Below, piece by piece: positions 25-30,761 of a DNA stretch of 39,853 nucleotides. Made by a program: the position numbers and the translations under genes. How positions within the stretch are numbered: position 1 is the stretch's first letter; the number at the start of each line of letters is the position of its first letter. Source of the stretch: Nemertoderma westbladi (Eukaryota > Animalia > Xenacoelomorpha); NCBI GenBank assembly GCA_032718475.1, contig JAUCBJ010007017.1, positions 1-39,853 of the forward strand, read 5' to 3'. The notes below the pieces were generated by a model that saw only the letters and a list, made by a program, of their open reading frames with translations, did no database searches and was not told where the DNA came from.

Positions 25-1855
25 ACCGGTACAATGGATGTACCGGTACAATGGATGTACCGGTACCATGGATGTACCGGTACCATGGATGTACCGGTAC
101 CATGGATGTACCGGTACCATGGATGTACTGGTACCATGGATGTACCGGTACCATGGATGTACCGGTACCATGGATGTACCGGTACCATGGATGTACCGGT
201 ACCATGGATGTACCGGTACCATGGATGTACCGGCACCATGGATATACCGGTACCATGGATGTACCGGTACCATGGATGTACCGGTACATAGATGTACCGG
301 TACCATGGATGTACCGGTACCATGGATGTACCGGTACCATGGATGTACCGGTACCATGGATGTACCGGTACCATGGATGTACCGGTACCATGGATGTACC
401 GGTACCATGTATCTACCGGTACCATGTATGTACCGGAACCATGTATGTACCGGTACCATGGATGTACCGGTACCATGGATGTACCGGTACCATGGATGTA
501 CCGGTACCATGGATGTACCGGTACCATGGATGTACCGGTACCATGGATGTACCGGTACCATGGATGTACCGGTACCATGGATGTACCGGTACCATGGATG
601 TACCGGTACCATGGATGTACCGGTACCATGTATCTACCGGTACCATGTATGTACCGGAACCATGTATGTACCGGTACCATGGATGTACCGGTACCATGGA
701 TGTACCGGTACCATGGATGTACCGGTACCATGGATGTACCGGTACCATGGATGTACCGGTACCATGGATGTACCGGTACCATGGATGTACCAGTACCATG
801 GATGTACCGGTACCATGGATGTACCGGTTCACATGGATGTACCGGTGCCATGGATGTACCGGTGCCATGGATGTACCGGTACCATGGATGTACCGGTACC
901 ATGGATGTACCGGTACCATGGATGTACCGGTACAATGGATGTACCGGTACAATGGATGTACCGGTACCATGGATGTACCGGTACCATGGATGTACCGGTA
1001 CCATGGATGTACCGGTACCATGGATGTACTGGTACCATGGATGTACCGGTACCATGGATGTACCGGTACCATGGATGTACCGGTACCATGGATGTACCGG
1101 TACCATGGATGTACCGGAACTATGGATGTACCGGTACCATGTATGTACCGGTACCATGTATGTACCGGTACCATGTATGTACCGGTACCATGTATGTACC
1201 GGTACCATGGATGTACCGGTACCATGGATGTACCGGTACCATGGATGTACCGGTACCATGGATGTACCGGTACCATGGATGTACCGGTACCATGGATGTA
1301 CCGGTACCATGGATGTACCGGTACCATGGATGTACCGGTACCATGGATGTACCGGCACCATGGATGTACCGGTACCATGGTTGTACCGGTACCATGGATG
1401 TACCGGTACCATGTATGTACCGGTACCATGGATGTACCGGTACCATGGATGTACCGGTACCATGGATGTACCGGTACCATGTATGTACCGGTACCATGGA
1501 ATTACCGGTACCATGGATGTACCGGTACCATGGATGTACCGGTACCATGGATGTACCGGTACCATGGATGTACCGGTACCATGGATGTACCGGTACCATG
1601 GATGTACCGGTACCATGGATGTACCGGTACCATGGATGTACCGGTATCATGGATGTACCGGTACCATGGATGTACCGGTACCATGGATGTACCGGTACCA
1701 TGGATGTACCGGTACCATGGATGTACCGGTACCATGGATGTACCGGTACCATGTATGTACCGGTACCATGGAATTACCGGTACCATGGATGTACCGGTAC
1801 CATGGATGTACCGGTACCATGGATGTACCGGTACCATGGATGTACCGGTACCATG
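25..1855. repeat. 17-bp minisatellite (ATGGATGTACCGGTACC)n, ~107 copies, intronic
   Basis: 17-bp period visible directly. The unit contains overlapping palindromes GTACCGGTAC, GGTACC and CCATGG. It explains the 17-aa periodic ORFs in all frames. Confidence 0.97.
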
Positions 1856-3962: not shown

Positions 3963-3986
3963 TATTATAAGCGGCTTATAACCCAC

Positions 3987-5293
3987 CTGGATTTCATTTC
4001 CAGAACTCCGCGTTGTTTTTCTTTAACTAATTCTACTTTTACAATTTTATCAGAATGTTTGCATATCGTCTGTCGTTGAATCGCATCTAACACCCCGCTT
4101 ATATCTTCTATTAGCGAACCAAATTGTAACATCAGCTTCTCCATTATTACTAGTTGCTGCAAAGCATTCTCGATCTTATGGCTTACATCTGAAGCATTAT
4201 TCAGTACAGCAGATGTTACATCGATAAATGTTAAAGTGGCATAGGTTTCCCTATCAATTACTTTTAATTTGCAATCCAACGACTTATTGTCTAGATACGA
4301 AGAATTGCGTTCCCATGGTGACATTACCTTAAATATTTGACTAAGTTGTGATTGGTAGTTACCCAGTTGAACCTCATTCACATCACCACTCTCACTTATT
4401 GCGTTGACTTCCAGTAACTGCTTTTCAATATCTTCACGCAGGGTTAGCAGCTTATCCCATTGGTCCAGCTGTGTTTCGCGTAGATTCACAAACCTCATAA
4501 ATTCATTCTCAACTTCTATTAGTTCGTTGTAACCACCCATAGCTTCAAGAACTTCAGAATTTTCTCTACTAGAGGAATATTTCGCAAACTGAGTCGCGAT
4601 TTTCGAAGAATTTTCTAGATTTTCTTCAAATTTTTCTCTCGTTTGTATAATTAAGGCACGTTGATTTACAATTTCATCCGCGAAAACCTTCAATTCGAGA
4701 TTTAATTCCAATGACTTGCTATCAATAATCTCCTTATATTTAGCAAAATCGTTCTGAAAAGTCTCTCTGGCATCTATAGTGGAATTCAATAGGTCCAATC
4801 GCTCTGCAATTTGCTGACTATCACGTCTCCAACGCGCATCAATGTTAGCCAATGATGTTGCTATGGAGCCTGTTGCATTTGTAGTCTGTAAATGATTACC
4901 TATTGATGACCACTCATTGTATTGTGATTGACACTCTCTTAGTTGATTCTCCATGTTACTGTACGTGTTTATATATTCAAGAAGAACATTTCGGGAATGT
5001 TTATCATAATGAGCGGCATCCTCTTCTAATCTACCTTCTATGCTCTCCAGTACGTTAACCAAAATATCCCGTAAATGCTCGTATTGTTGCCATGTTCGCA
5101 TGTTATTGGACAACTCAGAATGTCGAGCCTCAGCATGATTGGCTGCCAACTTCCAGCGTTTCTCCATAGTGTCAGTCTCATTGGTTGCTTCGGTTGATAC
5201 TAGGACGGCCTTGTGGCGAAGCTCCACAATGTCACCTCTATGATCTTGGATGTCGTTTTTAATTACCTTATTTGCTTCCAATAAAGATCCAAT
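3987..5293 (-). CDS. SYNE1: Nesprin-1-like large exon, 1307 nt, phase 0/2
   Basis: ORF 3965..5281 is helical with spectrin-like motifs (EKRWKL, TWQQYE, DARWRR); acceptor aaatag, donor gtgggt. Confidence 0.9.
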
Positions 5294-10330: not shown

Positions 10331-11852
10331 CCTCCAATAAAAATACAAATTAAAATATTGTCGCCAAAGTTCCATACACTGATGTGTATCTGAATTCTGA
10401 CGTATGTACCTAATGTTTTACAAGTCTGCTTTGAAATATCGTAAAAGTTTACATAATAATCCCCCAATTACAGAAAATTGGCGGGAACGTTTGAAACTCT
10501 CATAACTTTAAAGCCGTTTTTCTCAAAACTTTGTTAATATTTGGTCATTAGACTACTAATTTTCAAAACTCAATATCTTTATCGGATTTGAAATCTGTTT
10601 TCAGTGTTCGATTCAGCATAAAAATGTGTATTTGAATCAATAAAAAAACACAAAATTATTTTTTGTAACCGTAGGTCGGATTCTTGATCAAACCCCACAT
10701 TTTTAGATAATTAGTCATTATTATCATATGTAATAAATCACACAAGAATTTGCACCACAGGTTTCTTGGACGTATTTTTAACTTGTATATTTATTTTTTA
10801 TACAACAGACGTGTTTCATCAGTACTAATTACATAATTTGTTACATTATTCATTCTTGCTGTATATATTGCATATTATAATGGCGAATTAATGCTATTAA
10901 CTTTTGACGCATTTGCAACTATATATATATATATTTCATGTGTATGATAAAAAGGCATATATGTTACATACATATATCGCATCATTTTACTACAATTCAA
11001 CATTATTTTGGTGATAGCATTAACTAATGTTTCCTTTATTAAATGAGAATAAAATATTTAAAACAAAAATAATATCTAAAAGTATTAGTTAGTTAGTTTA
11101 TTTATGATGATCTTAATCTGATGATTGTAATCTGAACACTGTATATTGTATAATTCATAGCCCCATAATAAAAATAAATTGGCAAGATACCATCATATCA
11201 GTTCATTATTACCAGCATTAATTCAACACAGTGGCGATCCACTTAGACTATTTACTCTATCTAATGGAAACTACCCATTTACAAGCGAGTTTATCAAAAG
11301 TGAAGCAGTTTAGCACAGAAAAAGCTTTCTTCGTGGTGGATTAAGTAATTTTATGTTCATTGGTACTTTGCACTGGTGGAACAAAAAAATAGTGTGTGAC
11401 ATCTGACTTTAGACCAAAAATACACTGAGAGCGCCACTAAGGCGTAATCGTTACAAGTAGTCAATACGCCCAGATATCCATGATAACGCCCTTGTTACAT
11501 TTCCCAAAATCGTTAAAACGCCGTTATACATAACCATTTATGTCGAATTCGCTACGTGTTACATCTATATATAAATGAGGCAGCACCGTAATGAATTACT
11601 TTAGCTGATAATAGCTGGAAATAAGTGTCAAGTAGGGCTAGCAGGGGCTCGCCTGCCAAGACTACAGTGGAGTTGAACTAATACACAAAATTAGCTAATT
11701 AATTAAGTAAACAGTTGCCGGTAATATATAATTATCATCACAGTCACCCAGACACAATAATTTCGTGACACATCCCGAGGCAGGATAGCGGCACGAAAAT
11801 AAATGTCAACAAATAATGCATCCCTCATTGATCCTTACACACATAATTGGTT

Positions 11853-12285
11853 TTATGTTATGCCGTCGTATCGATGATATTGGCTGAGAAATTTTTTTTT
11901 TAATTGAATTGAGAAATGATTTGTAGTCCTTTTGTAGTTTAGTTGATTTATCTAAAGAGTTCCAGATTTTTATTAATGATACAATTATACTTGAGAAACC
12001 ATAATCATTATTTGTACTTGGTATTGTAATATTTCCTGTTCTAGAATTAATAATTTGATCGGCAGTAGTGTTTCTAATAGTTTTGTTATTAGTAGTATAA
12101 TGTGGGTTTCCCTGTATTCTAATGTTGTTTGTATGTAAAAGTGGTAGTTGTAATTGTTTGAAAGGGCGTGATAGTTTATTTACATATTTATAAAAAAATT
12201 TTAAACCAGTGTACTCTCTAAGTGAGTATAGATTTGGTAATTTAGCTAAGGTGCGTAGCTGCGTGCCAGTCAGGTCACGTATTTT
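11853..12285 (-). pseudogene. LINE ORF2 C-terminal region, frameshifted at a T8 run (12282-12289)
   Basis: Hand translation gives IRDLTGTQLRTLAKLPNLYSLREYTGLKFFYKY...IKIWNSLDK...FLNSIKKKILSQYHRYDGIT*, a typical CR1/L2-group C-terminus. Confidence 0.75.
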
Positions 12286-13297
12286 TTTTACTGAAAACTA
12301 TGCGAAGGCCGTAATTTTGTTGTTTATCTAGGTTGTATAATAGTTCTTTATATCCATGTTTTTTATGTAGGGGCGCTAGTAAATTACTACAGTAATTGTG
12401 ATGTGGTAAAACTGTTGCCTTAAATATATTTAATTTAGTTTTAACAGATAACTGGCCCTTGATTCTCCGCAAACAGGAGTTCGCCAGTCCCATTTTATTA
12501 GATATGGATTTAATTTGGCACTTCCAATTCAATTTATTATCTATATAGACGCCCAAATATTTTATATTTTCAGATTGTGGTATTATGGTATTTTTTGTTG
12601 TTAGTTTTATATCGTCAGTTTCAGGGGAGCGACTGTGCGGGGATAATAGTAAGAATTCTGTCTTGTCCGTATTAAGGTTTAGGTGTAGGTTTGCAAAAGT
12701 AGTCTCTAGGTCATTTACTTGTTTTTCTAGTGTCGCCGTAGCTATTTTTGGATCAGTATGTGAAAAAAATATCAGAGTGTCATCAGCGTATTGCACAAGA
12801 TCAAGATCAAAGAAAGTTTTTAAATTATTTACATATAAAAGGAATAATAGTGGTCCTAACTGCGTTCCTTGAGGTACCCCCCTGTTTATAGTTTCCCATT
12901 TTGAATAAGTCTCATTTATTTTAACACGTTGTGGCCTGTCCCTTAAGAAATTTTCTAGCAGTGTAATGGCGGTCCGATGTAATCCCAGGCATTTTAGTTT
13001 TTTAAGCAGAATCGCGTGGTTCAAAGAATTGAAAGCCTTAGAGAGATCCAAAGCAGCTACAGCCACAAATTTATTTTTATCTACTTGTGCTCTCCATGAC
13101 TCTGTGGTATAAATAATTGCATCAGATGTGGAATAGCCCTTTTGGAAACCAAATTGTTTTTTATTAATCAATTTATGCTTATTTATGTAGATGTATAATT
13201 GGTTTATTATTACTTTTTCGAAAATTTTCTCAAATGTCGATGTTACAGATATTGGGCGGTAATTTTCGGGGTCTAAAATGTCACCTAAAAATGTCAA
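12275..13297 (-). CDS. LINE ORF2 reverse transcriptase domain (fragment)
   Basis: Motifs NYRPIS, QFGF, DLSKAF, GVPQG..LGPLLF, YADD, KYLGV. Confidence 0.95.
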   Translation of the reverse strand: MTFLGDILDPENYRPISVTSTFEKIFEKVIINQLYIYINKHKLINKKQFGFQKGYSTSDAIIYTTESWRAQVDKNKFVAVAALDLSKAFNSLNHAILLKKLKCLGLHRTAITLLENFLRDRPQRVKINETYSKWETINRGVPQGTQLGPLLFLLYVNNLKTFFDLDLVQYADDTLIFFSHTDPKIATATLEKQVNDLETTFANLHLNLNTDKTEFLLLSPHSRSPETDDIKLTTKNTIIPQSENIKYLGVYIDNKLNWKCQIKSISNKMGLANSCLRRIKGQLSVKTKLNIFKATVLPHHNYCSNLLAPLHKKHGYKELLYNLDKQQNYGLRIVFSKKNT

Positions 13298-15972
13298 ATA
13301 TCACTTAGTTTCAGTTTCTGAGGGAAGACTGAAGTGGTTAGACATTTATTGATAATAAGTGTTAATGGAGTAACTATTTGGTATCTAACAAGTTTAATAA
13401 TTTTAGGTGGCATACTGGATGGACCATTTGGTTTATTTATATTTATTTTGCTTAGGATATCAAATACTTCCATGTCACTAACGTTGAAAAATGCAAATTC
13501 AGGCCTTAACTGCATCTGCGATTCTTCATTGTAAGAAGTGGTATTATTAGACCAATCCTTATTGTAGTGCTGGGGAGTATTTGATGTTTTGAGTCCTAGG
13601 TTTAAAAATACCCTATTGAAAATCTTAGCGATACTGGATTTAGTGTTGTAAATAATATTGTCCATATCCCTTAAGCGATTAATTTTGGTTTGTGCCTTTT
13701 TTTTATTTAGAATAGAATTGATTATATTCCACCGCAGTTTTGGATCCTTCGCAGTGCCAAATTTATCCCGCATGTGCTGGTTTTTCATATACTTATTTAG
13801 ATTATTATATTTGTTACGTGCACTTTTGAAGGCTTTATAATAAAAATCCTGTTTTGTGGATCGCCATTGTTGTAGTTTGTTCATTTTTTCTTTACGTAGT
13901 TCTTCAAGCTCCTTCGTCCACCATGGAGTATTGATCGGCGGTTTTTTGTTCTCGACAATCAATATTCTCCTGAATGGCGCATGGATATCAAGAACGGCCT
14001 CCATTTTCGCTTCCAAATAGTCATAGCAAAAATTTACGTCCGGACTGTGATACAATGGCGACCAATCAATTTTGTTAATGTCCTCAATGAATTTTGATTC
14101 CGAAAATTGTTTGAAGTTTCTAATAGTTTTCCAACTTTTTTCATTATTTTGGTTGTCCAATTTGTAATTTATATTTGTATTTAATATTACAGTTTCGTGA
14201 TCAGAAAAATCGCAAAATAGAGTAGATGTGTTAATTATTGGTAGATTGTTATCTGAGGTGATAATGAGGTCAAGTAAGGAGTTTTTTGTTTTTCCAAAAC
14301 GAGTCGGTTCGCTGCTATTAATTAATTTCAGGTCGTATTTAGAAAGCATTTCATGGAGATCCCTTGTTTTAATGTTATTTTTATCAAGAATATCGATATT
14401 AAAGTCACCTCCCATTATAATCTCGGTCGATGGATTGTTAATAGCATTCTCGATTTCCTCACTGAAATCTGTTATGAAATTCTTTGAGTTGGGTGGGTTA
14501 TAAGTAACATTTATAAGAAATCGATTATCTACTTCAACCCAAAGCGAGTCGTACGGTACCTTCTTATTTTTTATTTTGATGTCAGGACGTATTTTTTGAG
14601 ACATGTTGTCTGGTATATACAATAATACCCCACCTCCTCGTTTCCTCCTGCGATCGCAGCGATGAACGTTGAATCCCGGCAGAGCAATGGAGCGGTTCGA
14701 GTGTCTTTGTTTCAGCCAAGATTCTGTGATACCTATTATTATATTGCTTGAAATACCAGACAAGATATCCTTTAGTTCGTCATAATTTTTTACTAAGCTA
14801 CGGGTATTTAAGATCATATATTTCAGATTGTTTTGATTTATAATTAAGTGTTCTCGAATATTATCAGTATTTTTACTACTCCTCCTACGTTCTGATTGTT
14901 TATTTAATTTAATATTTATTTTTTTTAGGATTGGTCCTGGGTTTAGGTGTATATCTCCACATCTATGAATTAGCTGAGAGATTATTAAAGCATGTATTAT
15001 AGATATTTGTATAAGGATAGGAGTTAACAGTGCAATTATGTCTATAATTATATTTGCTTTGGAAGTTAATTTAGAAGTGTTATTTATAGAGCATATTGAG
15101 TTATTGTTAGTGGTAGTTTTATTTTTATTTGGTGATTTATGAGATACGAGACCTGGCTGCCACCAGCTACACGCGCTAATGTATATTATTATTATTGTAT
15201 TTAAATTACGTCTAATTGAAGTACTGGTGGGACATAGATGAGTAAGTATTCTTATTGTTAGTGATGTTAAAATGAAGTTTGATATTAGTATTGCTATTGG
15301 TAGAGTTGTAGTCAGTATGGAGGTAATAGATTTGTCAGTAAGCTTACGTTGAGTATAAAGAGATATATTGACTAGTAGTCCTAGTATTATATTACATATT
15401 ACGAGTGTCGATACCATTAAATTATATTTTAATTTGTATTTTTTGGATTTATATTTGATATACCGTAATGCACCCGTTATCAATGAATTAAGATACGACA
15501 TAGTAGATATGCATACTTTTGAGAAAATTTTTCGACGAATTAAATTGCAAATGATAGTAAATATAAATTTGGTTGAGATATATGTAAATATATATATCAA
15601 CTTTATTAAGGAGGAGGGATGTATCATTCCACTACCTATAATAACAACCAACAATCGTAACAATGTGTAACCATTACAACAATGATGTATAATTTGTAGT
15701 TTTACTTTATGTGACGTATTAAAAACGGCAGGTTTGATGTATAATTTGAGCCCCCGCTTCGCAAGTTTTACGAATGTTAATATTAAAAAAGAAAATAGGA
15801 GGCGCTGATTGAACATTAGTATAAGACAGCAGAAATCACAAAATATAGTCATACCAGAGAATTTCTCAAAGCGACCATTGCAGTAAAATAGAGTATCGCA
15901 GTAAAATATACTAAGTATAATCATTATACTATAAAAAATGGTAAAATTTATCATTAAATAACAACTGAACAT
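13294..15972 (-). CDS. LINE ORF2 N-terminal part: hydrophobic leader, 2A-like motif, APE endonuclease, linker
   Basis: Motifs CGDIHLNPGP, NTRSL, ITESWL, GGGVLLY, YNPP, GDFN, LDL, SDH, PWW. The frame breaks at a short duplication at 13273-13296. Confidence 0.93.
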   Translation of the reverse strand: MFSCYLMINFTIFYSIMIILSIFYCDTLFYCNGRFEKFSGMTIFCDFCCLILMFNQRLLFSFLILTFVKLAKRGLKLYIKPAVFNTSHKVKLQIIHHCCNGYTLLRLLVVIIGSGMIHPSSLIKLIYIFTYISTKFIFTIICNLIRRKIFSKVCISTMSYLNSLITGALRYIKYKSKKYKLKYNLMVSTLVICNIILGLLVNISLYTQRKLTDKSITSILTTTLPIAILISNFILTSLTIRILTHLCPTSTSIRRNLNTIIIIYISACSWWQPGLVSHKSPNKNKTTTNNNSICSINNTSKLTSKANIIIDIIALLTPILIQISIIHALIISQLIHRCGDIHLNPGPILKKINIKLNKQSERRRSSKNTDNIREHLIINQNNLKYMILNTRSLVKNYDELKDILSGISSNIIIGITESWLKQRHSNRSIALPGFNVHRCDRRRKRGGGVLLYIPDNMSQKIRPDIKIKNKKVPYDSLWVEVDNRFLINVTYNPPNSKNFITDFSEEIENAINNPSTEIIMGGDFNIDILDKNNIKTRDLHEMLSKYDLKLINSSEPTRFGKTKNSLLDLIITSDNNLPIINTSTLFCDFSDHETVILNTNINYKLDNQNNEKSWKTIRNFKQFSESKFIEDINKIDWSPLYHSPDVNFCYDYLEAKMEAVLDIHAPFRRILIVENKKPPINTPWWTKELEELRKEKMNKLQQWRSTKQDFYYKAFKSARNKYNNLNKYMKNQHMRDKFGTAKDPKLRWNIINSILNKKKAQTKINRLRDMDNIIYNTKSSIAKIFNRVFLNLGLKTSNTPQHYNKDWSNNTTSYNEESQMQLRPEFAFFNVSDMEVFDILSKININKPNGPSSMPPKIIKLVRYQIVTPLTLIINKCLTTSVFPQKLKLSDI

Positions 15973-16065
15973 TATAAAATGGTCATTCTGGATATTATTT
16001 AGAGATACAGTCGATCTGGATAAAATGTTAAAAATACGTTTGATATATTTATTTACGATTTATCA

Positions 16066-17538
16066 TTAAAAATATTGCTCAGTCAGCGGTGTGCTGCTGG
16101 CTGTAATTGCTCTAATTAGGGCTATCGCAGAATCGACTATTGGGTTACTGTCATTACGATTCATTCCGCGATTCCCGTATTGATTGATCGCATCCAACGG
16201 AGTTGGCCGCTGCAACTGCCGAGATGTTGCCGTGTTGAATTGTTGTAGCTGCGGGTTTCTGTACATCGGCTGGTTATGTGGGATTTGCCGTCCCATGGAT
16301 GGAGGAAAACTCCAGGCCGATTGTATTGGAAATTGGCGGCTCGGGAGAGACGGGAACTCTAGCGAGTTGTTCATTAGATGAGCTGGTTGTGGGTTACCGG
16401 TATTCGAGCGAATGAATGGTTGCCGGATCGTTCTGACGGTTTGATCTTTGTTTGTTAGCTTTGTTCCGTGTAGCTGCGATTTAATGTTCCTTGCTAAGAT
16501 ACCTACATACTTTGCCGCGATATGCTTGGAATCGACTAAGTGAGATCGTGTTATATTATCCTGAGGAACGAGAATCACGCCATTAATATTAGCACATAGA
16601 GTTTGTAGTGCCTTGTTAATCGGTTCCACGTTGACATCGGATCTAACGATGAGCTCGGATACGTAAAAACGACAATTTGGCCACCGTTTACGCAGTATTT
16701 CGATACTTCTCTTCGTGTTCCGCGTAATTAAGGGTATATTAGTATTATCCTGGTCACAGTCATTCGTCCCCGCTTGTATATAGATCTGGTTAATTACTCC
16801 GTTAAACTTTGATATTGCTGAGGATGCGTTCCGGATCAGGTCCATAGTGGTAGAACTCGGTACCATCCGGGCCACACAGTCAATTTGCCGAGGGTATATA
16901 TATTTGCGATTACTGTCCATAAACAGTAGTGTCTCCACCAGATTATCTCTATTCTCAGCCGAAGGGACCCTGGTGTATCCCTCGGAGGTGGCACCATCAT
17001 CCGGTAAAGGTACAATCGGGGTGGCTCCATTGTCGTCCTTACTAGTGGATGCCGGACTGGATGTAGAATTGGGATCACCATTCGCAGTAACGAAAGCGGT
17101 TCCGCTATCTGATATTTCGGTGGTTTGGTCCGGGTCTGGCGAAATGATTGGAGCCACATTCCTCTTGTGTGCTTCACTGAGGCTGTGACCTCCCAAGGAG
17201 GGAGGTTTGTTTACATTTTCACTAAGAAGGGTTTTTGTGTTACCGGTAGGCATATTGGTACCGGTATCAATAGACTTACCGGTGCCGGTAGTTGAAACAG
17301 AACCGGTAGGCCTACCGCCGTTATCCTGGTTATGGCAACAACAGCCATTGATAAGCGATTCCACAGCGTTCTCGAGTTTGAATATTCGGATCATATCTCC
17401 ACGTCGGATTTCTTTTAGCTGGGCCAATTCCATTTCCAGTGTTACCAACCTCTCAAACGTAAGCCTACTGCGGTTGCTTGGAGAGCACTCGGTATAACAT
17501 AAACTTCCGTCGGCGTTGGGTGGTATGGTGTGGGAGAA
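16066..17538 (-). CDS. LINE ORF1 C-terminal part: coiled coil plus SGNH/GDSL-like esterase
   Basis: LFMDS, QAGTND and DSKH match SGNH blocks I, III and V. The frame is open from ~17538, upstream of the ORF-track start. Confidence 0.8.
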   Translation of the reverse strand, partial: FSHTIPPNADGSLCYTECSPSNRSRLTFERLVTLEMELAQLKEIRRGDMIRIFKLENAVESLINGCCCHNQDNGGRPTGSVSTTGTGKSIDTGTNMPTGNTKTLLSENVNKPPSLGGHSLSEAHKRNVAPIISPDPDQTTEISDSGTAFVTANGDPNSTSSPASTSKDDNGATPIVPLPDDGATSEGYTRVPSAENRDNLVETLLFMDSNRKYIYPRQIDCVARMVPSSTTMDLIRNASSAISKFNGVINQIYIQAGTNDCDQDNTNIPLITRNTKRSIEILRKRWPNCRFYVSELIVRSDVNVEPINKALQTLCANINGVILVPQDNITRSHLVDSKHIAAKYVGILARNIKSQLHGTKLTNKDQTVRTIRQPFIRSNTGNPQPAHLMNNSLEFPSLPSRQFPIQSAWSFPPSMGRQIPHNQPMYRNPQLQQFNTATSRQLQRPTPLDAINQYGNRGMNRNDSNPIVDSAIALIRAITASSTPLTEQYF

Positions 17539-18014
17539 TTATCTACCGGTATGCTGGTCAGTGTAGTATCTATTTCATTATTGGTACCGTAGGCGGTATA
17601 TCTAGGCCTATCTGAACTGCCTTCCATGAAATACGATTCGTTGAGCGCCCGTCTGGGACTATCGTTACCGTTACCATTACCGGCTGGAACTTTCGTAATT
17701 CCGTAATCGCAAACCGTTGTTTCATTGTCACTTTCATAGGGACTGGTGTCTGGAGTATTCCCTGTGGACTCATCTACGGTTGGGATGATAGTTTTATTTC
17801 TCATATTGATCCTTCGTTGGTAAACTTCGATTTGATCGTCTGGATGTAGTTTGAAGTGTGCCCGTAAACGTAATATTAGTGTCGGTTTTGGGCCAGTTGT
17901 TGGTAGTTTTAAAAAGCGCAGATCTTCTCTTAAAACTTTATTAGTTTGTGTTTCATAATTAAACTCGAGCGTCGTCAGGTCTTCAGCACCATTAGCCTCT
18001 GCTGAGTTGGCCAT
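17442..18014 (-). CDS. LINE ORF1 N-terminal part with SAP-like motif
   Basis: TNKVLREDLRFLKLPTTGPKPTLILRL fits the SAP pattern (LxxxLxxxxLxxxGxKxxLIxRL). It overlaps the downstream ORF in the -1 frame. Confidence 0.72.
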   Translation of the reverse strand: MANSAEANGAEDLTTLEFNYETQTNKVLREDLRFLKLPTTGPKPTLILRLRAHFKLHPDDQIEVYQRRINMRNKTIIPTVDESTGNTPDTSPYESDNETTVCDYGITKVPAGNGNGNDSPRRALNESYFMEGSSDRPRYTAYGTNNEIDTTLTSIPVDNSPTPYHPTPTEVYVIPSALQATAVGLRLRGW

Positions 18015-18159
18015 ATACAGTCAGTGGTTAGTCTGACAGTCAGATTATCAGTTAGGTTAGGTTATTACTGTATTGCAATTTCTGAGCTGAAGTTTACATA
18101 TTACTTTGATTGGTTCACTTACAACTTATGTAATATATCAATCCAGCCAATGAACTAAC

Positions 18160-18328
18160 GTTGAACTTGTCCGAAGATGGAATTCCATTGGCTGTTCAGT
18201 GTATCATATTGGTGCATTATCTTCTTATATTCAGGGTTGTCATAGTCACCGTCCGCAGTCAGCCGGTCGATTGCAGATCTTAGTTCGTCTAGATGGTGTT
18301 TCTTTTCAGTCAATTCTGAATTTATAAT
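18160..18328 (-). CDS. SYNE1: Nesprin-1-like exon (IINSEL...LNSQWNSIFGQVQ), 169 nt, phase 0/1
   Basis: Acceptor tttttgcag, donor gttagt; spectrin helix-C Trp motif. Confidence 0.87.
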
Positions 18329-19136
18329 CTGCAAAAAAATCAAGCAATCAAACTAACTCCCAATTATATACAAATTAAATAAATATTTGAAAAACGTGCT
18401 GTAAGCTGTACGAATTCTGCTGTAAGATAAATGTTCCAGAACTGAAATGGTGCCGGTACTGAAATACTACAACCTACTTATCTTTAAATCAGATTTATAA
18501 CAGATACCTGTATAATAGAAAAGAAAATGTATAATACAATCTCCCTACATTCTACTGTAGTTATGGAAACAGTCATCCTAGTTTTGAAGTTAGAATTCCG
18601 TCATCCGAGGATCACTTGGAGCTGAACTCTGACGAATCTTCTGCACCGAGATGACTGCGGAGTCTTCAACAATGACGATACAAACTGGCTATGGGTGCCA
18701 GAATGTTTTTAATTTGTTTCACTGTAGCTTATATCTGGACGGCCAAAAGGTCGAAAGAGGTTCGCAGCAGAACTCTATCTCTACGACTCTATCTTTTCGG
18801 CTCTTGGCCTGACTTTACCAACTCAATGCTGAAAGACGCAAAAGCTCTCCTGGTGGTTATGCTAGAATCATGTGTCAACCAACATTGGCGGGTATACCAG
18901 CCCCAAATGTGACCTAATGTATAATCAATATGGATACAACCTATATATTCTATAACAGCAACAACACATTAAATATTATTAAATTTGACTGGGATGGAGG
19001 TCTTTCTTGATGTGGATAAGATCGATTTGGAATCCTGCATCGTCGTTTGTACTTTATAAAGTTGACAAGGACGATGCCATTCACATAGTACATATAATCC
19101 CACACAAAAGGGATTAATTAATTAATAACAGCTCAC

Positions 19137-19871: not shown

Positions 19872-20104
19872 CTGAAACAAATATTAAAATGGTTTGGTAG
19901 AACCTGAAAACAAACAAACTGGTTCACGGAGTACAAATAGCCAGTCAGCCACTTAATCTGTACTCGTATAGGTAAATAACTGCTATTAGAAACTACAAAT
20001 AAAATACATAAATATAATACATAATACAAATAATGTACGTGGAGCTGTTGCAAAAACCATATTTATTATGTCCTAACAGTTAACTTCAGTTAAATAATAT
20101 TCAC

Positions 20105-21488
20105 CTCTTTTTCCAAACGTTCTATTTTGTCGAGGGTATCTCTCAGTTCACTTTCGTTTCCGTTATCTTTGCGATGCAAGACTTCTTTGGCGCGTCTCAG
20201 GAATGACATCATGGTCATCTCCGATTCTTCATAACGCTGCCATCCAGTCTCTAGGTCTCCGAGCAAGTCATTTCTCATTCTCACGTCCGATTGCAGGTTG
20301 GCCAGAGATCGTTCCATGGTCAGGTAATCTTTGTTTAAGCTTGTCTGTTCCTTCAACATCCTCAACGTGTCGTACACAGTCGGGACTAGCTTTTCTACCT
20401 CTTTTATAAGCAATGCATGGTCAGCAGCTGCGGATTTAGCTCCAACAAGATTGTCAATGTAAGGGAATTTTGACATATTTACTCCTATCTGATTGAGTTT
20501 GCCTTCTACAACTGATGCCTGCTGTCTACAGTCAAATCTTCGCAGAATTCCTTCTGATCTGGTTGCCATGGTAGCCGAATCATTTAGAAAATCATCCAAA
20601 CGTTTTCTTTCATTTTTAAGTTTAACTTCCTCATCCTCGATTGTGTTTTGATCTCCAATAGTCCGGATTTCGTCCAACTTTCTTTGAAGATTTTCGAAGT
20701 CATGAATTTTATTTTTTCCTTCAGAGTTTCGCTTTTTAAATTCATATAAAATATCGTTATATTTTCTGGAGTCAGATTCAGATTCCCTTAACTCTGCCAA
20801 TATCTGTTCACTGCGATCCAACCACGCGGATAATTCTGCAAATTGCTTCCGGTATTCCGCGAACAGCCCCGGGGCTCGCTCCATCGCTAGAAGTTCCTCA
20901 GCCCGACGCCTTTGGAGTTCGGCTAGACGGGAGCGAAGATCATGATTACCCGAGCCATCGGCACATAAATTTCGCAAACATTCATCGCTGATTTGGTCGA
21001 AGTTGTCATTAAAGAACTCGCGATGCTCGGCAATAATTGAGGCAACATTGTCCCCATCTCGTAGCCGTCGTCTTCCATCACTCAAACGTGACTCTCCCTG
21101 GGAAATCAACTCCAGGAGTATCTGTTTGTCCTTAAGTTGTTGCGATTCTGCTCTATCCAGCAGTAACCGGTCCTTAACCAGATCAAATCGTCGAGAAATT
21201 TCGTGCACTTCATCAGAGATTGTTTGCTTATCATCCTTATCACCAATGATGGTTAACAATGCATCACTGCTGCGTCGGAACTCCAGAGCTAGGCCCGATT
21301 TTGCTATTAGTTCATCGCAGTCAGTAATTCGTCTGTTGTAATCTGACATAGGCTTTCTCAAAAGGGCCTCGGCATTCGATAACCAATCATTGGCATTTGA
21401 TAAATCCTCTCGGTATCTTTTCCATTCCGGTCTGTTCTTCTGCTGGTTCCGCTGCCATTGTATAGCCACAGACTTCAGTTTTTCATAT
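20105..21488 (-). CDS. SYNE1: Nesprin-1-like large exon, 1384 nt, phase 2/0
   Basis: ORF 20090..21469 has spectrin repeats (EWKRY..DWLSNAE, LSAWLDRSE, GWQRYE); acceptor ttttattag, donor gtgaat. Confidence 0.92.
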
Positions 21489-21568
21489 CTAATAAAACAA
21501 ATATTTTTTAAAATAATTTATAGTACAATTCAAATTTTAAATTTCAATAATTATTTATAAACATAATT

Positions 21569-22500: not shown

Positions 22501-22896
22501 TAATTTCAAATCAAGAAATTTGGGTAATTTTGGGAATTATGTACATGCATCAACTGTTAACATGTCACGTTGCATTTACGGTTTCAGAAATTCCTCTTCT
22601 GCTTTAAAAAGAGTCCATATTAGCTATTAGCACCCATTTCGTGAATGCCATTCACTCTGAGTACTGAGTAGCATCATAGTGTATGCACAATCAATCAATC
22701 AATGGGATGGAATCTGGTAGCTTATTCCTAAGAGTCTTATTACATACCGGTAAGGCACCAGATCCAATTGATGGTGTATACATACAGTATAAACCATGAT
22801 GCAACTCCAGTAGAACATGGTATTCGTGAGACTTGTACTAATAGACAATATTCGGTTCGCTAAGGTTCGTTCGGGTAGTAGATTGTATTGAATCAT

Positions 22897-25472
22897 AGAA
22901 TATATCTGTAGTAAATTGACTTATATTGAATTAAAGAATATATCTGTAGTAAATTGACTTATATTGAATTAAAGAATATATCTGTAGTAAATTGACTTAT
23001 ATTTAATTAAAGAATATATCTGTAGTAAATTGACTTATATTGAATTAAAGAATATATCTGTAGTAAATTGACTTATATTGAATTAAAGAATATATCTGTA
23101 GTAAATTGACTTATATTGAATTAAAAAATATATATGTAGTAAATTGACTTATATTGAATTAAAGAATATATCTGTAGTAAATTGACTTATATTGAATTAA
23201 AGAATATATCTGTAGTAAATTGACTTATATTGAATTAAAGAATATATCTGTAGTAAATTGACTTATATTGAATTAAAGAATATATCTGTAGTAAATTGAC
23301 TTATATTGAATTAAAGAATATATCTGTAGTAAATTGACTTATATTGAATTAAAAAATATATATGTAGTAAATTGACTTATATTGAATTAAAGAATATATC
23401 TGTAGTAAATTGACTTATATTGAATTAAAGAATATATCTGTAGTAAATTGACTTATATTGAATTAAAGAATATATCTGTAGTAAATTGACTTATATTGAA
23501 TTAAAGAATATATCTGTAGTAAATTGACTTATATAGAATTAAAGAATATATCTGTAGTAAATTGACTTATATTGAATTAAAGAATATATCTGTAGTAAAT
23601 TGACTTATATTGAATTAAAGAATATATCTGTAGTAAATTGACTTATATTGAATTAAAGAATATATCTGTAGTAAATTGACTTATATTGAATTAAAGAATA
23701 TATCTGTAGTAAATTGACTTATATTGAATTAAAGAATATATCTGTAGTAAATTGACTTATATTGAATTAAAGAATATATCTGGAGTAAATTGACTTATAT
23801 TGAATTAAAGAATATATCTGTAGTAAATTGACTTATATTGAATTAAAGAATATATCTGTAGTAAATTGACTTATATTGAATTAAAGAATATATCTGTAGT
23901 AAATTGACTTATATTGAATTTAAGAATATATCTGTAGTAAATTGACTTATATTGAATTAAAGAATATATCTGGAGTAAATTGACTTATATTGAATTAAAG
24001 AATATATCTGTAGTAAATTGACTTATATTGAATTAAAGAATATATCTGTAGTAAATTGACTTATATTGAATTAAAGAATATATCTGTAGTAAATTGACTT
24101 AATTGAATTAAAGAATATATCTGTAGTAAATTGACTTATATTGAATTAAAGAATATATCTGTAGTAAATTGACTTATATTGAATTAAAGAATATATCTGT
24201 AGTAAATTGACTTATATTGAATTAAAGAATATATCTGTAGTAAATTGACTTATATTGAATTAAAGAATATATCTGTAGTAAATTGACTTATATTGAATTA
24301 AAAAATATATATGTATTAAATTGACTTATATTGAATTAAAGAATATATCTGTAGTAAATTGACTTATATTGAATTAAAGAATATATCTGTAGTAAATTGA
24401 CTTATATTGAATTAAAGAATATATCTGTAGTAAATTGACTTATATTGAATTAAAGAATATATCTGTAGTAAATTGACTTATATAGAATTAAAGAATATAT
24501 CTGTAGTAAATTGACTTATATTGAATTAAAGAATATATCTGTAGTAAATTGACTTATATTGAATTAAAGAATATATCTGTAGTAAATTGACTTATATTGA
24601 ATTAAAAAATATATATGTTGTAAATTGACTTATATTGAATTAAAGAATATATCTGTAGTAAATTGACTTATATTGAATTAAAGAATATATCTGTAGTAAA
24701 TTGACTTATATTGAATTAAAGAATATATCTGTAGTAAATTGACTTATATTGAATTAAAGAATATATCTGTAGTAAATTGACTTATATAGAATTAAAGAAT
24801 ATATCTGTAGTAAATTGACTTATATTGAATTAAAGTATATATCTGTAGTAAATTGACTTATATTGAATTAAAGAATATATCTGTAGTAAATTGACTTATA
24901 TTGAATTAAAGAATATATCTGTAGTCAATTGACTTATATTGAATTAAAGAATATATCTGTAGTAAATTGACTTATATTGAATTAAAGAATATATCTGTAG
25001 TAAATTGACTTATATTGAATTAAAGAATATATCTGTAGTAAATTGACTTATAATGAATTAAAGAATATATCTGTAGTAAATTGACTTATATTGAATTAAA
25101 GAATATATTTGTAGTAAATTGACTTATATTGAATTAAAGAATATATCTGTAGTAAATTGACTTATTTTGAATTAAAGAATATATCTGTAGTAAATTAACT
25201 TATATAGAATTAAAGAATATATCTGTAGTAAATTGACTTATATAGAATTAAAGAATATATCTGTAGTAAATTGACTTATATTGAATTAAAGTATATATCT
25301 GTAGTAAATTGACTTATATTGAATTAAAGAATATATCTGTAGTAAATTGACTTATATTGAATTAAAGAATATATCTGTAGTAAATTGACTTATATTGAAT
25401 TAAAGAAAATATCTGTAATAAATTGACTTATATTGAATTAAAGAATATATCTGTAGTAAATTGACTTATATT
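22897..25472. repeat. 38-bp AT-rich minisatellite (AGAATATATCTGTAGTAAATTGACTTATATTGAATTAA)n, ~68 copies
   Basis: 38-bp period visible directly (22897, 22935, ...); highly homogeneous. Confidence 0.97.
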
Positions 25473-25645
25473 ATTCGAATAGTTTTATTACTTACAATTA
25501 GAAACTGATGAAGAAGGATAGTTTATTGTACAATTGGTTGACCTGCTTCGTTTCTTTGTATTGTTCAAATTATGACTCACATGATTAACTGCTCCTAATT
25601 ACAGGTATTGTACCAGATGCACTTAGAATAGCCAGAATTATCTCT

Positions 25646-26284
25646 GTGTTTAAATCTGAGGACCCCACCCTGCCCCAAAAGTATAGACCCATCATATCCG
25701 TGCTCCCACTGTTCTCCAAAATCTACGAAAAAATTGTATACAAGCAATTGATTAAGTACCTCAATAGCCATAACATTCTCTCACCAAGGCAATTTGGTTT
25801 CCGTCTTAAACGCTCAACTCAACTAGCACTACTATCTCTCCTTGATAATATAACATCTGCAGCTGAAAATAAAGACATTTCAATTGCCATATCTATTGAC
25901 CTTGCCAAGGCCTTTGATACAGTAAACCACGATATCCTCATTCAAAAACTACAGGCATATGGGATTGGTGGAAACGCGCTGAACTGGTTTAAGAGCTACT
26001 TAAGTAACCGTAAACAATCTGTTGCCATAGGTAACAGTTCTTCTGCTGACCTCCTTAATATAAACTATGGGGTGCCGCAAGGATCCATTTTGGGACCCCT
26101 ATTATTCCTTATTTACTGTAACGACATCGTCAATGTTTCACAAAAAATATTTTTTATTTTATTTGCTGACGACACAAATATTGTTTGCTCACACAAGGAT
26201 ATTGATACACTTATTACGGCTGTGAATGTGGAACTTGATAAACTTTTTAAATGGTTTTGTGTAAACCGTATTTCCCTAAATTAA
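25646..26284 (+). pseudogene. Reverse transcriptase fragment of the truncated LINE
   Basis: Canonical non-LTR RT motifs; continues after frameshifts in 26395..26592, ~26662..26834 and 28683..28898. Confidence 0.9.
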
Positions 26285-26831: not shown

Positions 26832-28720
26832 TGACCTCAGTGTCGGCTGTTCACTCACATAACACGCGTGACCTCAGTATCGGCTGTTCACTCACATAAC
26901 ACGCGTGACCTCAGTGTCGGCTGTTCAATCACATAACACGCGTGACCTCAGTGTTGGCTGTTCACTCACATAACACGCGTGACCTCAGTATCGGCTGTTC
27001 ACTCACATAACACGCGTGACCTCAGTGTCGGCTGTTCACTCACATAACACGCGTGACCTCAGTGTCGGCTGTTCACTCACATAACACGCGTGACCTCAGT
27101 GTCGGCTGTTCACTCACATAACACGCGTGACCTCAGTGTCGGCTGTTCACTCACATAACACGCGTGACCTCAGTGTCGGCTGTTCACTCACATAACACGC
27201 GTGACCTCAGTATCGGCTGTTCACTCACATAACACGCGTGACCTCAGTGTCGGCTGTTCACTCACATAACACGCGTGACCTCAGTGTCGGCTGTTCACTC
27301 ACATAACACGCGTGACCTCAGTGTCGGCTGTTCACTCACATAACACGCGTGACCTCAGTGTCGGCTGTTCACTCACATAACACGCGTGACCTCAGTGTCG
27401 GCTGTTCACTCACATAACACGCGTGACCTCAGTGTCGGCTGTTCACTCACATAACACGCGTGACCTCAGTGTCGGCTGTTCACTCACATAACACGCGTGA
27501 CCTCAGTGTCGGCTGTTCACTCACATAACACGCGTGACCTCAGTGTCGGCTGTTCACTCACATAACACGCGTGACCTCAGTGTCGGCTGTTCACTCACAT
27601 AACACGCGTGACCTCAGTGTCGGCTGTTCACTCACATAACACGCGTGACCTCAGTGTCGGCTGTTCACTCACATAACACGCGTGACCTCAGTGTCGGCTG
27701 TTCACTCACATAACACGCGTGACCTCAGTGTCGGCTGTTCACTCACATAACACGCGTGACCTCAGTGTCGGCTGTTCACTCACATAACACGCGTGACCTC
27801 AGTGTCGGCTGTTCACTCACATAACACGCGTGACCTCAGTGTCGGCTGTTCACTCACATAACACGCGTGACCTCAGTTTCGGCTGTTCACTCACATAACA
27901 CGCGTGACCTCAGTGTCGGCTGTTCACTCACATAACACGCGTGACCTCAGTATCGGCTGTTCAATCACATAACACGCGTGACCTCAGTGTCGGCTGTTCA
28001 ATCACATAACACGCGTGACCTCAGTATCGGCTGTTCACTCACATAACACGCGTGACCTCAGTGTCGGCTGTTCACTCACATAACACGCGTGACCTCAGCG
28101 TCGGCTGTTCAATCACATAACACGCGTGACCTCAGTATCGACTGTTCACTCACATAACACGCGTGACCTCAGTGTCGGCTGTTCACTCACATAACACGCG
28201 TGACCTCAGTGTCGGCTGTTCACTCACATAACACGCGTGACCTCAGTGTCGGCTGTGTTCACTCACATAACACGCGTGACCTCAGTATCGGCTGTTCACT
28301 CACATAACACGCGTGACCTCAGTATCGGCTGTTCACTCACATAACACGCGTGACCTCATTATCGGCTGTTCACTCACATAACACGCGTGACCTCAGTGTC
28401 GGCTGTTCACTCACATAACACGCGTGACCTCAGTATCGGCTGTTCAATCACATAACACGCGTGACCTCAGTGTCGGCTGTTCACTCACATAACACGCGTG
28501 ACCTCAGTATCGGCTGTTCAATCACATAACACGCGTGACCTCAGTGTCGGCTGTTCAATCACATAACACGCGTGACCTCAGTATCGGCTGTTCACTCACA
28601 TAACACGCGTGACCTCAGTGTCGGCTGTTCACTCACATAACACGCGTGACCTCAGTGTCGGCTGTTCACTCACATAACACGCGTGACCTCAGTTTCGGCT
28701 GTTCGCTCACATAACACGCG
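26832..28720. repeat. 37-bp minisatellite (TGACCTCAGTGTCGGCTGTTCACTCACATAACACGCG)n, 51 copies, derived from LINE ORF2
   Basis: 37-bp period; 1889 bp = 51x37 plus one 2-bp insertion; the unit encodes TSVSAVHSHNTR. Confidence 0.96.
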
Positions 28721-29241: not shown

Positions 29242-29986
29242 CTGCACATTGCATGCATGATACCGTGAACACCATAATAGTTATTATTATTTTATTTACT
29301 CCCAGTATTTCACAATTATTATATTATATTATGTATTATTCAATTTATTGCATGTCTTTGTGCGGTAAATGTTGATGAATAAGAATAAAAATAAGAATAA
29401 GAATTCATAAATTCTAATAATTTACCTTATTAATTGTGTCGGTATTAAAGAATTGTGTCGGTAGCTAATATCCACCAAAAGTAATACCAGACACTTTGTT
29501 TACATGTTTCCCAGACTGCCAGAATAATTTTATATCTCCTGGACTAGAATGCCTCCCGTTTGCAATAATGAAATGCAGAGGAGATGCTTGTTTGGATGCC
29601 ATCTGGATCCCAAATGAATGGGGGAATTCGTACGCGTTACATATAACGCCATTGCGGTGCAACTCCCATATAATAATAGGCAATCGTAAGCAATCGATAA
29701 CCCCCCCCCCCCCCCCCCCCCCCCCAATATGGAGACCCGCCTATATAAACTGTATGTATATATATACCATACACACACATCGTAGCATATTGCTTCTCTT
29801 TGTACAATAATTATGCGTCATATCTGTAGGAATACAGGGTGATTTATACGTTTACATAATATGTACGATTGAGTCACTGTGCGAAGTATTTTTAAGTAAA
29901 AATGTGATTGTAAATTAGGAATTTCCTCTCATCATAAGTTTTTAAATTTTTTACATTCTTTAATTCATTAACAAATATAATATAAA

Positions 29987-30331
29987 ATGTCACGCCTTTT
30001 AAAAGAAATTATTATCCTTAGTTTCCTGTTGGTGTTCCATCTAGCGGCAGGAGTTGATATCGAATGTTACACTTACGAGTATTTCTGCGACATGTCGCTA
30101 GATGGCGGTGGCGTTTGTTACGGTCTGTTGCCGGGCGACAGCCGCTTGTGTACCGGGGATGGAGTCAAGTACTGCTACACGGGGGTCTATTACGAGGAGA
30201 CCAACCCGTCTGTAGTATACTACAAGGGCGGATGTTCGAGCTGCGATAAGTTGGGGATGTTGAGCGGGACGTGTCAGAGTCTGGGGTCTCCGCTGACTCA
30301 AGTCTCTGACTCAAATCAACGGTGTATCAAG
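29987..30331 (+). CDS. Nested gene exon 1: secreted Cys-rich Ly6/uPAR (three-finger)-like protein
   Basis: aaaATG start; signal peptide MSRLLKEIIILSFLLVFHLAAG; IECY start; KYCY and KGGC motifs; donor AAG|gtacgt, phase 0; GC-rich against an AT-rich background. Confidence 0.85.
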
Positions 30332-30761
30332 GTACGTTGTAACTATGGAGTTCTGTAGGTCTATGTCTGTCTGGCCTTGCTGCTTTTATTTAGGGCGTGT
30401 GGGACAACATTCCGATGCTGTAAATAATAATTTTATAAATTTTAAAAATGAAAGAATAAAATCTGACTAAACTAACGCCCAACTTTGTTCAATAAATTAC
30501 TGTGGCTAATTAGTTTCCACCAACGTTGTGCCCAAGCTATAAATGGCCGTGTAAAACACTGTATAATATTAATTCCATTTAAATTTCATCATGCTTCTTT
30601 AGCGAATAATTACCGTTTTCAACAAAATTATGTTCTGCTGTGGTTTCAAATCAAAATATAATTGTACTGTATAGAGTTTTCGTGCGATTATCTTATGATA
30701 CCGTCACCTTAATAAATAAATATTTTTCAGCCGTTACAACTGACTGTAAATATATTTTCAG

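What the first reader, a model, noticed from the sequence alone, without database searches (positions are those of the whole stretch)
14932..15972. LINE ORF2 begins with a ~340-aa multi-pass membrane-like leader ending at a 2A-like motif
Seen: 1 kb of stop-free AT-rich frame from the ATG at 15972, with about seven or more long hydrophobic stretches (e.g. LMVSTLVICNIILGLLVNISLY, IIIDIIALLTPILIQISIIHALIISQL), ending at CGDIHLNPGP just before the APE domain. Established: 2A-like DxExNPGP ribosome-skipping motifs occur upstream of APE in CR1/L2-group LINEs. To my knowledge the leader there is usually short. Inference: the element may encode a separate polytopic membrane protein released from, or anchoring, the endonuclease-RT. 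That would be unusual cargo, possibly for membrane association or cell-to-cell transfer.
Basis: partly seen in the sequence, partly recalled or inferred. Interest (0 to 1): 0.75.

Follow-up and report, generated by a model that had tools for sequence, protein, structure and literature searches.

The report
Oversized membrane leader on young LINE
A young jumping gene (a LINE) starts its copying enzyme with an unbroken, greasy 347-residue leader, about three times the length seen in related elements, which likely ties the enzyme to the cell's inner membranes and likely rations how much is set free at a weak ribosome-skipping site.

Summary
The frame from ATG 15972 is stop-free (chance about 4e-12), with six strong and two weak hydrophobic segments, and ends in GDIHLNPGP ahead of APE-RT. 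The element is a young, multi-copy, two-ORF LINE (SAP plus esterase-like ORF1). Collapsed family contigs in three runs match the leader letter for letter, so it is the family state, but dN/dS cannot be measured.

A hydrophobic leader before the 2A-like motif is a general trait. Among 71 stop-bounded LINE leaders the median is 107 aa and the maximum 221; where measurable, such leaders have dN/dS 0.11-0.50. The nine complete nearest RT relatives have 67-107 aa. This one is the outlier.

It is bipartite. Residues 186-347 are more hydrophobic than their base composition predicts. Residues 1-185 are kept open but are only as hydrophobic as T-rich DNA gives. The motif lacks the canonical Glu; 6 of 21 tested peptides with His there skip. 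No homologue, family or fold was found.

Best reading: an enlarged ER-tethering and throttling leader, mostly left fused. A released membrane protein for cell-to-cell transfer is possible but unsupported.

The parts
11566..18077 (-). Full-length two-ORF APE-type LINE, about 6.5 kb, young multi-copy family, inserted in sense in an intron of a nesprin-like gene
   Evidence: High-depth contigs begin at 11566 and end at 18053-18077 in three runs, and depth falls to flank level outside; Spectrin_SYNE1 on the same strand; exon-like stretch at 18160-18330
17523..18014 (-). ORF1, N-terminal part with SAP domain (about 17853-17957)
   Evidence: Pfam SAP E=2e-6, above cut-off; family contigs of three runs hold one more base at 17522, so this part and the next are one ORF in the family
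16066..17522 (-). ORF1, C-terminal part with SGNH-esterase-like domain
   Evidence: Lipase_GDSL_2 E=0.005, below cut-off; DSN, GTND and DSKH motifs in SGNH order (block definitions recalled)
15973..16068 (-). ORF1 stop followed by two more in-frame stops (TAA TGA TAA) and a 93-nt spacer; ORF1 and ORF2 share one frame; two tiny upstream ORFs, each touching a TAATG
   Evidence: TAATG precedes 16 of 95 ATGs in the element, so the overlap is not notable
15418..15972 (-). Leader, N-terminal part (aa 1-185): T-rich, 7 in-frame Met, 3 strong and 1 weak hydrophobic segments
   Evidence: P(open)=5e-7; hydrophobicity not above its composition null, P=0.18
14932..15417 (-). Leader, C-terminal part (aa 186-347): 3 strong and 1 weak hydrophobic segments; the last 95 aa follow the hydrophobic / polar linker / hydrophobic-2A layout of ordinary leaders
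   Evidence: GRAVY above null, P=0.0009; position profile against 31 intact leaders; weak internal repeat aa 204-247 vs 294-338, P about 0.008, in 2 overlapping of 5 comparisons, none at DNA level
14932..14958 (-). 2A-like motif GDIHLNPGP (His in place of the canonical Glu)
   Evidence: aligns with the motif of 9 of 9 nearest full-length relatives
14188..14814 (-). APE endonuclease domain
   Evidence: Pfam Exo_endo_phos E=1.7e-6 and Exo_endo_phos_2 E=1.4e-10
12542..13267 (-). Reverse transcriptase; this copy is frameshifted near 13290, 12282 and 11892, where family contigs differ
   Evidence: RVT_1 E=2.6e-34; tables 3-4

Best explanation
This young LINE's endonuclease-RT frame begins with an open, hydrophobic 347-residue leader, an enlarged form of the 70-130-residue leader common before 2A-like motifs, which likely inserts into the ER membrane during translation and likely holds most of the enzyme there, with only a fraction predicted to be freed at a weak skipping site. 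Steps. (1) Shown: ORF1 ends in three in-frame stops, and the first in-frame AUG lies 93 nt on. (2) Inferred: ribosomes restart at that AUG or at one of the six in-frame AUGs before aa 186, so the stretch must stay stop-free; the T-rich N-terminal half would be spacer drawn into the frame, and the C-terminal half is the selected hydrophobic core. (3) Inferred: the first hydrophobic segment brings ribosome and LINE mRNA to the ER, and the basic run after the last segment leaves APE-RT on the cytosolic side, next to its own mRNA and the esterase-type ORF1 protein. (4) Inferred: partial skipping or drop-off at GDIHLNPG/P releases a small soluble pool of APE-RT for the nucleus, and the fused remainder stays membrane-bound or is degraded. 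The leader would thus be a tether and a throttle, not independent cargo.
For: The open frame is far beyond chance, in both halves, and identical in collapsed family contigs of three runs at several times flank depth. No in-frame Met lies between aa 186 and the first APE strand, so an AUG start that includes the motif must include at least 162 aa of leader. All 9 complete nearest RT relatives have 67-107-aa leaders, 8 of them with a hydrophobic segment. 49 of 71 stop-bounded LINE leaders have 1-3 segments. Ordinary leaders show dN/dS 0.11-0.50 in the 19 of 38 pairs that were not saturated, and five elements keep exactly 112 aa without gaps. The leader shares their lack of Asp/Glu (1.5% vs 2.6%) and their layout. 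7 of 8 segments score below the 5th percentile of soluble ORF2 minima on a crude insertion scale. His variants skip in 6 of 21 tested peptides, and 4 of 6 with Arg-Cys/Ala before the motif, as here, do not skip (PMC13405545 supplement 3); Crack-15_BF E->H had very low activity (PMC3708506). 59% of tested ORF2p 2A-like peptides lowered protein output. 2A-like peptides can act as ER signals (PMC4981915), and the ZfL2-1 ORF1 esterase binds liposomes (PMC3905857).
Against: No RNA, ribosome or protein data exist here. No diverged copy of this leader was available, so selection on its residues is untested. The positive-inside test of an 8-segment topology was not significant (26 of 122 vs 10 of 68 K/R, P=0.18). 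Only 2 of the 8 segments score as strong on the insertion scale, and no real topology predictor could be run. A membrane-bound ORF2p must still reach chromatin, and how is not shown. His is found in 14 of 31 intact elements, and one peptide with the same nine-residue core did skip, so skipping may be better than assumed. The three runs may be the source of the window, and contigs hide rare variants.
Confidence: 0.5

Rival explanations
1. The leader is only a throttle: a hydrophobic nascent chain plus the 2A-like motif stalls ribosomes or sends the product to degradation. Membrane location has no role of its own, and the length is incidental.
For: Leu-rich and hydrophobic 2A-like peptides reduce protein level, 59% of the ORF2p cases tested. 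Self-restraint was proposed by Odon 2013 and Luke 2013. The N-terminal half is no more hydrophobic than its T-rich DNA gives. No confident fold (mean pLDDT 51.5, single sequence).
Against: Ordinary leaders keep length, spacing and residues well upstream of the roughly 20 aa that act in the exit tunnel (dN/dS computed without the last 10 codons). Hydrophobic residues in this leader are clustered (P=0.011).
Confidence: 0.2
2. The leader is a separate polytopic membrane protein, released at the 2A site, with its own job (pore, membrane remodelling, or passing RNPs between cells).
For: 347 open codons with 6-8 segments, longer than all 71 stop-bounded leaders. An alternating topology with basic loops and a loop with 4 N-glycosylation sequons can be drawn. 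Whole domains upstream of 2A are known in ORF2p (DUB, repeat domains). An env-free transmembrane fusogen exists in LTR elements.
Against: No homologue among 1.84 billion representatives, in the word search or in viral contigs. No Foldseek match (low-confidence model). The motif lacks Glu. No myristoylation motif, and size and segment number differ from sORF2/FAST. Sequon count 4 vs 2.5 expected from the loop's own composition.
Confidence: 0.15
3. Translation starts at Met186 (or nearer the motif), and the upstream 185 codons are untranslated spacer that happens to be open.
For: Met186 has G at +4. Composition changes from T-rich to A-rich near there. Only the downstream part is more hydrophobic than its null.
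Against: P(open) for aa 1-185 is 5e-7, with 20 and 11 stops in the other two sense frames. Seven in-frame and several out-of-frame AUGs would have to be bypassed.
Confidence: 0.1
4. The leader is a captured host, mitochondrial or viral membrane-protein gene fused ahead of the 2A motif.
For: AT-rich, Ile/Leu-rich, and compositionally unlike APE-RT. One weak PHROG row (phrog_19131, unknown function, E=0.001) and one NCBIfam row (SLATT_1, E=0.04, far below cut-off).
Against: No Pfam match for the whole leader under codes 1, 5, 9 or 13, none in PDB sequences or the representative library. The two weak rows cover plain hydrophobic helices.
Confidence: 0.05

Closest known systems
2A-bearing APE-type non-LTR retrotransposons (Rex1, L2, L2A, Crack, CR1, Ingi clades; Odon et al. 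2013, PMC3708506, parts 1-4 of 6 read; Luke et al. 2013, PMC3894237, part 1 of 3 read)
   Same: 2A-like motif in the N-terminal region of ORF2, upstream of APE; His for Glu as in Crack-15_BF; proposed down-regulation of ORF2p
   Different: The motif lies 347 aa from the start, not about 40-80. An ORF1 is present (most described elements lack it). The parts read do not describe the upstream peptide as a membrane protein.
Eukaryotic 2A-like peptides in ORF2p with N-terminal cargo (bioRxiv 10.64898/2026.06.17.732966 = PMC13405545; passages and supplement rows read)
   Same: Variable N-terminal sequence before 2A; hydrophobic helix before the motif; 'reduced abundance' phenotype
   Different: The cargo named there is Josephin/OTU deubiquitinase or repeat domains. 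No multi-pass leader in the passages seen (0 and 1 occurrences of 'transmembrane' in the two versions).
2A-like signal sequences of sea-urchin NLR proteins (Roulston et al. 2016, PMC4981915; passages read)
   Same: One hydrophobic peptide acts as both ER signal and skipping site, giving dual targeting
   Different: 26-aa N-terminal peptides on host genes; here 347 aa with several segments on a LINE ORF2
Esterase-type (type IV) ORF1 LINEs, e.g. ZfL2-1 (PMC3905857, PMC4120745, PMC13343379; passages read)
   Same: SGNH-like ORF1 and a proposed role of membranes in RNP assembly
   Different: ORF1 here starts with a SAP domain (0 occurrences of SAP in PMC4120745), and the element adds a hydrophobic ORF2 leader
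sORF2/FAST-like fusogens of MDG1-group LTR retrotransposons (bioRxiv 10.1101/2025.03.14.642691; passages read)
   Same: Retrotransposon-encoded transmembrane product, with basic runs after hydrophobic segments
   Different: sORF2 is a separate 63-107-aa single-pass ORF, often myristoylated, in capsid-forming elements; none of this applies here

Membership tests
2A-bearing APE-type non-LTR retrotransposon (Odon 2013) | ORF2 with APE and RT | tested here: met
   Pfam above cut-off for both
2A-bearing APE-type non-LTR retrotransposon (Odon 2013) | 2A-like motif in frame upstream of APE (variants included) | tested here: met
   GDIHLNPGP at aa 339-347; aligns with relatives
2A-bearing APE-type non-LTR retrotransposon (Odon 2013) | Motif about 40-80 aa from the ORF2 start; usually no ORF1 (typical traits, exceptions known) | tested here: not met
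   347 aa from the first ATG, 162 from the nearest; ORF1 present
Canonical active 2A/StopGo peptide | D[V/I]ExNPGP core | tested here: not met
   His at the Glu position
Canonical active 2A/StopGo peptide | Measured skipping | not testable with these tools
   Look-alikes: 6 of 21 GD[IV]HxNPGP peptides skip (rows with HPGP, NPGL or the letters elsewhere left out)
CR1-group LINE, named clade (L2, Crack, Daphne) | RT placement against named references (RTclass1) | tested here: inconclusive
   RT falls in a clade (support 0.86) of unnamed 2A-leader elements at 39-42% identity. No named reference was in the tree; the L2/Crack-like label rests on recalled motifs.
Type IV (esterase) ORF1 | SGNH domain with Ser, oxyanion Asn and Asp-His | tested here: inconclusive
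   Lipase_GDSL_2 17.8 bits against a cut-off of 32.9; DSN, GTND, DSKH present; no PDB sequence match
sORF2/FAST fusogen | Short (63-200 aa), single transmembrane segment, separate ORF | tested here: not met
   347 aa, 6-8 segments, in frame with ORF2
sORF2/FAST fusogen | N-terminal myristoylation motif MGxxxS/T (in most) | tested here: not met
sORF2/FAST fusogen | Cell-cell fusion activity | not testable with these tools
   needs an expression assay
Polytopic membrane protein | Several segments able to insert, with positive-inside topology | tested here: inconclusive
   6 segments at KD 1.6 or more, against 6 of 5000 nulls; positive-inside P=0.18; DeepTMHMM not available

The most novel reading that the evidence does not exclude
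This LINE encodes its own 6-8-pass membrane protein, released in part at the 2A-like site. Together with the lipid-binding esterase ORF1p it builds a membrane compartment or vesicle for RNP assembly and export, an envelope-like function that non-LTR elements are thought to lack. It would be the extreme of a widespread, selected, membrane-targeted ORF2 leader not found described in the papers searched.
Probability: 0.15. Interest if true: 0.85.

Novelty: new variant of a known kind. Interest (0 to 1): 0.45.

Why it matters
How LINEs without an AUG at the endonuclease make and ration ORF2p, and whether membranes take part in non-LTR retrotransposition, are open questions (PMC3708506, PMC3905857). 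The survey here shows that the peptide upstream of the 2A-like motif is selected and membrane-like across many elements. This recently spreading family carries by far the longest version seen, together with an esterase-like ORF1. A 347-aa leader is large enough to tag, fractionate and truncate, so it is a good handle for testing ER-tethered ORF2p synthesis. If the extra segments prove dispensable, it is only a length outlier.

Tried and rejected
No whole genome is held, so copies could not be aligned one by one. No RNA holder was listed; this says nothing about expression.

Homology searches with the leader were blank: word search of aa 1-420, proteins of 490-1561 aa only; phmmer of 1.84 billion representatives, 0 at E<=0.001; viral contigs, 69 pattern matches and 0 confirmed; Pfam, NCBIfam, PHROGs and PDB sequences. 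A mitochondrial origin was tested with codes 5, 9 and 13: nothing. The ESM Atlas gave no result for the leader or for a homologue.

Single-sequence AlphaFold2 gave mean pLDDT 51.5, and Foldseek 0 matches at E<=0.001; this is uninformative, so no further fold search was made.

None of 116 APE-side relatives had a hydrophobic leader, but only 4 showed a 2A motif and their starts come from gene callers, so they were not used as the baseline. The viral scan gave 0 LINE-linked hits of 140.

Positive-inside topology (P=0.18) and sequon excess were not significant. An internal duplication is weak at protein level and absent at DNA level. No unusual RNA structure at the ORF1-ORF2 junction (z=-1.1) or the 3' end (z=-0.55). 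No target-site duplication among the 20 largest direct-repeat families shown. An antisense gene was rejected (13-39 stops).

Run X5 holds only 88 bp of the leader; a hole in contigs proves nothing. Literature searches found no paper on a transmembrane ORF2 leader in LINEs. Repbase reports, subscription journals and unread supplements (including Odon's) were not seen.

Full report
Observation. The minus-strand frame from ATG 15972 gives 347 residues without a stop, ending CGDIHLNPGP, and continues into an APE domain. The DNA is 29% GC. A stop is expected in 7.3% of codons, so an open run of this length has P=4.5e-12; the other five frames hold 13-46 stops. Six 19-residue windows reach Kyte-Doolittle 1.6 and two more are weaker. 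Stop-free random sequences of the same base composition gave six or more in 6 of 5000 trials. The motif carries His where the canonical 2A has Glu, and about 39 residues separate it from the first APE strand. The hydropathy scales were recalled.

The element. It spans about 11566-18077, in sense within an intron of a nesprin-like gene. ORF1 has a SAP domain and an SGNH-esterase-like domain (the latter below the Pfam cut-off). It ends in TAA TGA TAA, in the same frame as ORF2, 93 nt before ATG 15972. This copy has small breaks at 17522, near 13290, at 12282 and at 11892, where the high-depth family contigs differ in the way that keeps the frames continuous. Depth is several times the flank and rises toward the 3' end, as 5' truncation would give; it is no exact copy number. 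Over 14932-15972 the collapsed contigs of runs X1, X2 and X3 show no substitution and no indel. The limits are that these runs may be the window's source, X1 and X2 are one sample, contigs drop rare variants, and identical copies give no dN/dS.

Baseline. Of 353 motif hits, 84 had APE-RT downstream and 81 were distinct; 71 were bounded by an upstream stop and 10 ran off the DNA held. The open frame up to the motif had median 107 aa and maximum 221; 0 of 71 reached 300, against 376 here. Segments at 1.6 or more numbered none in 22, one in 34, two in 14 and three in 1. Among the 31 with at least 1100 nt of upstream DNA the maximum was again 221. The nearest RT relatives (39-42% identity) form a clade with this element (support 0.86). 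Its 9 complete members have 67-107-aa leaders ending in the motif; the other 9 show no motif, and most are short, probably cut records. In pairs of related surveyed elements the leader, without its last 10 codons, had dN/dS 0.11-0.50 in 19 of 38 pairs. The other 19 were saturated, and the pairs are not independent. Five elements keep exactly 112 aa without gaps. A hydrophobic, selected, fast-evolving leader is thus a general trait of these LINEs, and this one is the length outlier. Earlier unchecked notes of this scan report the same layout, with stated lengths of about 80-150 aa; they agree but are not independent support.

Anatomy of the leader. In-frame Met occur at 1, 7, 17, 41, 53, 116, 158 and 186, then not until the first APE strand. 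Residues 186-347 are more hydrophobic than their composition predicts (P=0.0009). Residues 1-185 are kept open (P=5e-7) but are no more hydrophobic than T-rich stop-free DNA (P=0.18). That test is partly circular, since selection for hydrophobic codons would itself raise T. The last 95 residues follow the hydrophobic / polar / hydrophobic-2A profile of 31 intact leaders. An 8-segment topology with APE-RT cytosolic can be drawn, but its positive-inside bias is not significant (P=0.18). No homologue, family or fold was found.

The skipping site. Odon et al. (PMC3708506, parts 1-4 of 6 read) place the motif 40-80 aa from the ORF2 start and found the E->H element Crack-15_BF very weakly active. 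In supplement 3 of PMC13405545, 29 rows matched the search and 21 have exactly GD[IV]HxNPGP: 6 are in skipping classes, 11 non-skipping and 4 fall-off. One skipping peptide shares this nine-residue core. Of 6 with Arg-Cys/Ala before the motif, as here, 4 do not skip. His occurs in 14 of 31 intact surveyed elements, so it is a maintained variant, not decay. Partial or weak release is the most likely state.

Mechanism. Shown: gene order, triple stop, open hydrophobic leader, variant motif, family-wide identity. Inferred: restart at the first AUGs after ORF1 (stop-start coupling is known for SART1; the same-frame, extra-stop layout of human L1 is recalled); ER targeting by the first segment (2A-like peptides can serve as signals, PMC4981915); a cytosolic APE-RT beside its mRNA and a membrane-binding esterase ORF1p (shown for ZfL2-1, PMC3905857); and a small freed pool at the leaky site, which rations ORF2p as proposed in PMC3708506 and PMC3894237. 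I give this 0.5, a pure throttle 0.2, a released protein with its own job 0.15, a start at Met186 0.1 and a captured gene 0.05.

Comparison and novelty. The element belongs with 2A-bearing APE LINEs in the broad sense but fails the typical traits (short leader, no ORF1) and the canonical motif. It fails the sORF2/FAST hallmarks. Long cargo before 2A in ORF2p is known, as deubiquitinase or repeat domains. Seven literature searches found no description of a multi-pass ORF2 leader; Repbase reports, subscription papers and unread supplements could hold one. Verdict: a real, new variant of a known kind; interest 0.45.

Noticed in passing
window 25-1855, 26832-28720, 34606-39853 (- strand): Satellites at or made of splice-donor-like sequence. 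The 17-bp array starts right after an open exon-like stretch ending AG|GTATGC; the 37-bp units hold GTGAGT or AG|GTAAGT. They resemble the 'mirage'-type arrays noted elsewhere in this genome by earlier unchecked notes.
   Followed up: partly
window 22886-25472: 38-bp satellite (68 copies) whose minus-strand unit holds an acceptor-like TACTACAG. It lies just before a second, unrelated LINE RT fragment at 25589-26284 (+).
   Followed up: partly
window 17853-17957 (-): SAP domain at the start of a LINE ORF1, ahead of an esterase-like domain. No earlier scan note held all of these words, and PMC4120745 does not mention SAP.
   Followed up: partly
window 15549 and 15145: Part of the family leaves the leader here for other sequence (15549 in X1, X2, X5; 15145 in X3). 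Most likely 5'-truncated copies; a second subfamily with another 5' part is not excluded. Read by eye, the 30 letters beyond 15549 are open in frame in X1/X2 but hold a stop in X5.
   Followed up: partly
window 13277-13298: Short rearranged stretch that frameshifts this copy between linker and RT; one family contig carries 7 more letters there.
   Followed up: partly
window 3965-5293, 18160-18330, 20090-21517 (-): Exons of a nesprin/ANC-1-like spectrin-repeat gene. The LINE sits about 80 nt past a donor site, and run X2 shows a haplotype that departs from the window at the 5' junction, so the insertion may be polymorphic.
   Followed up: partly
window 29981-30358 (+): Cys-rich stretch with a signal-peptide-like start, resembling a three-finger/Ly6-type protein (label recalled; no Pfam hit).
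   Followed up: no
L244-L329 (genome contigs): 35 of 88 2A-motif hits in prokaryote genome records are linked to LINE APE-RT, which points to animal host DNA inside these MAGs.
   Followed up: partly
L002, L042, L066, L076, L306 leaders: Several unrelated leaders start with a similar short motif (roughly M..D...[YW]R..IG.F) before the first hydrophobic segment; not recognised by eye in the window's leader.
   Followed up: no
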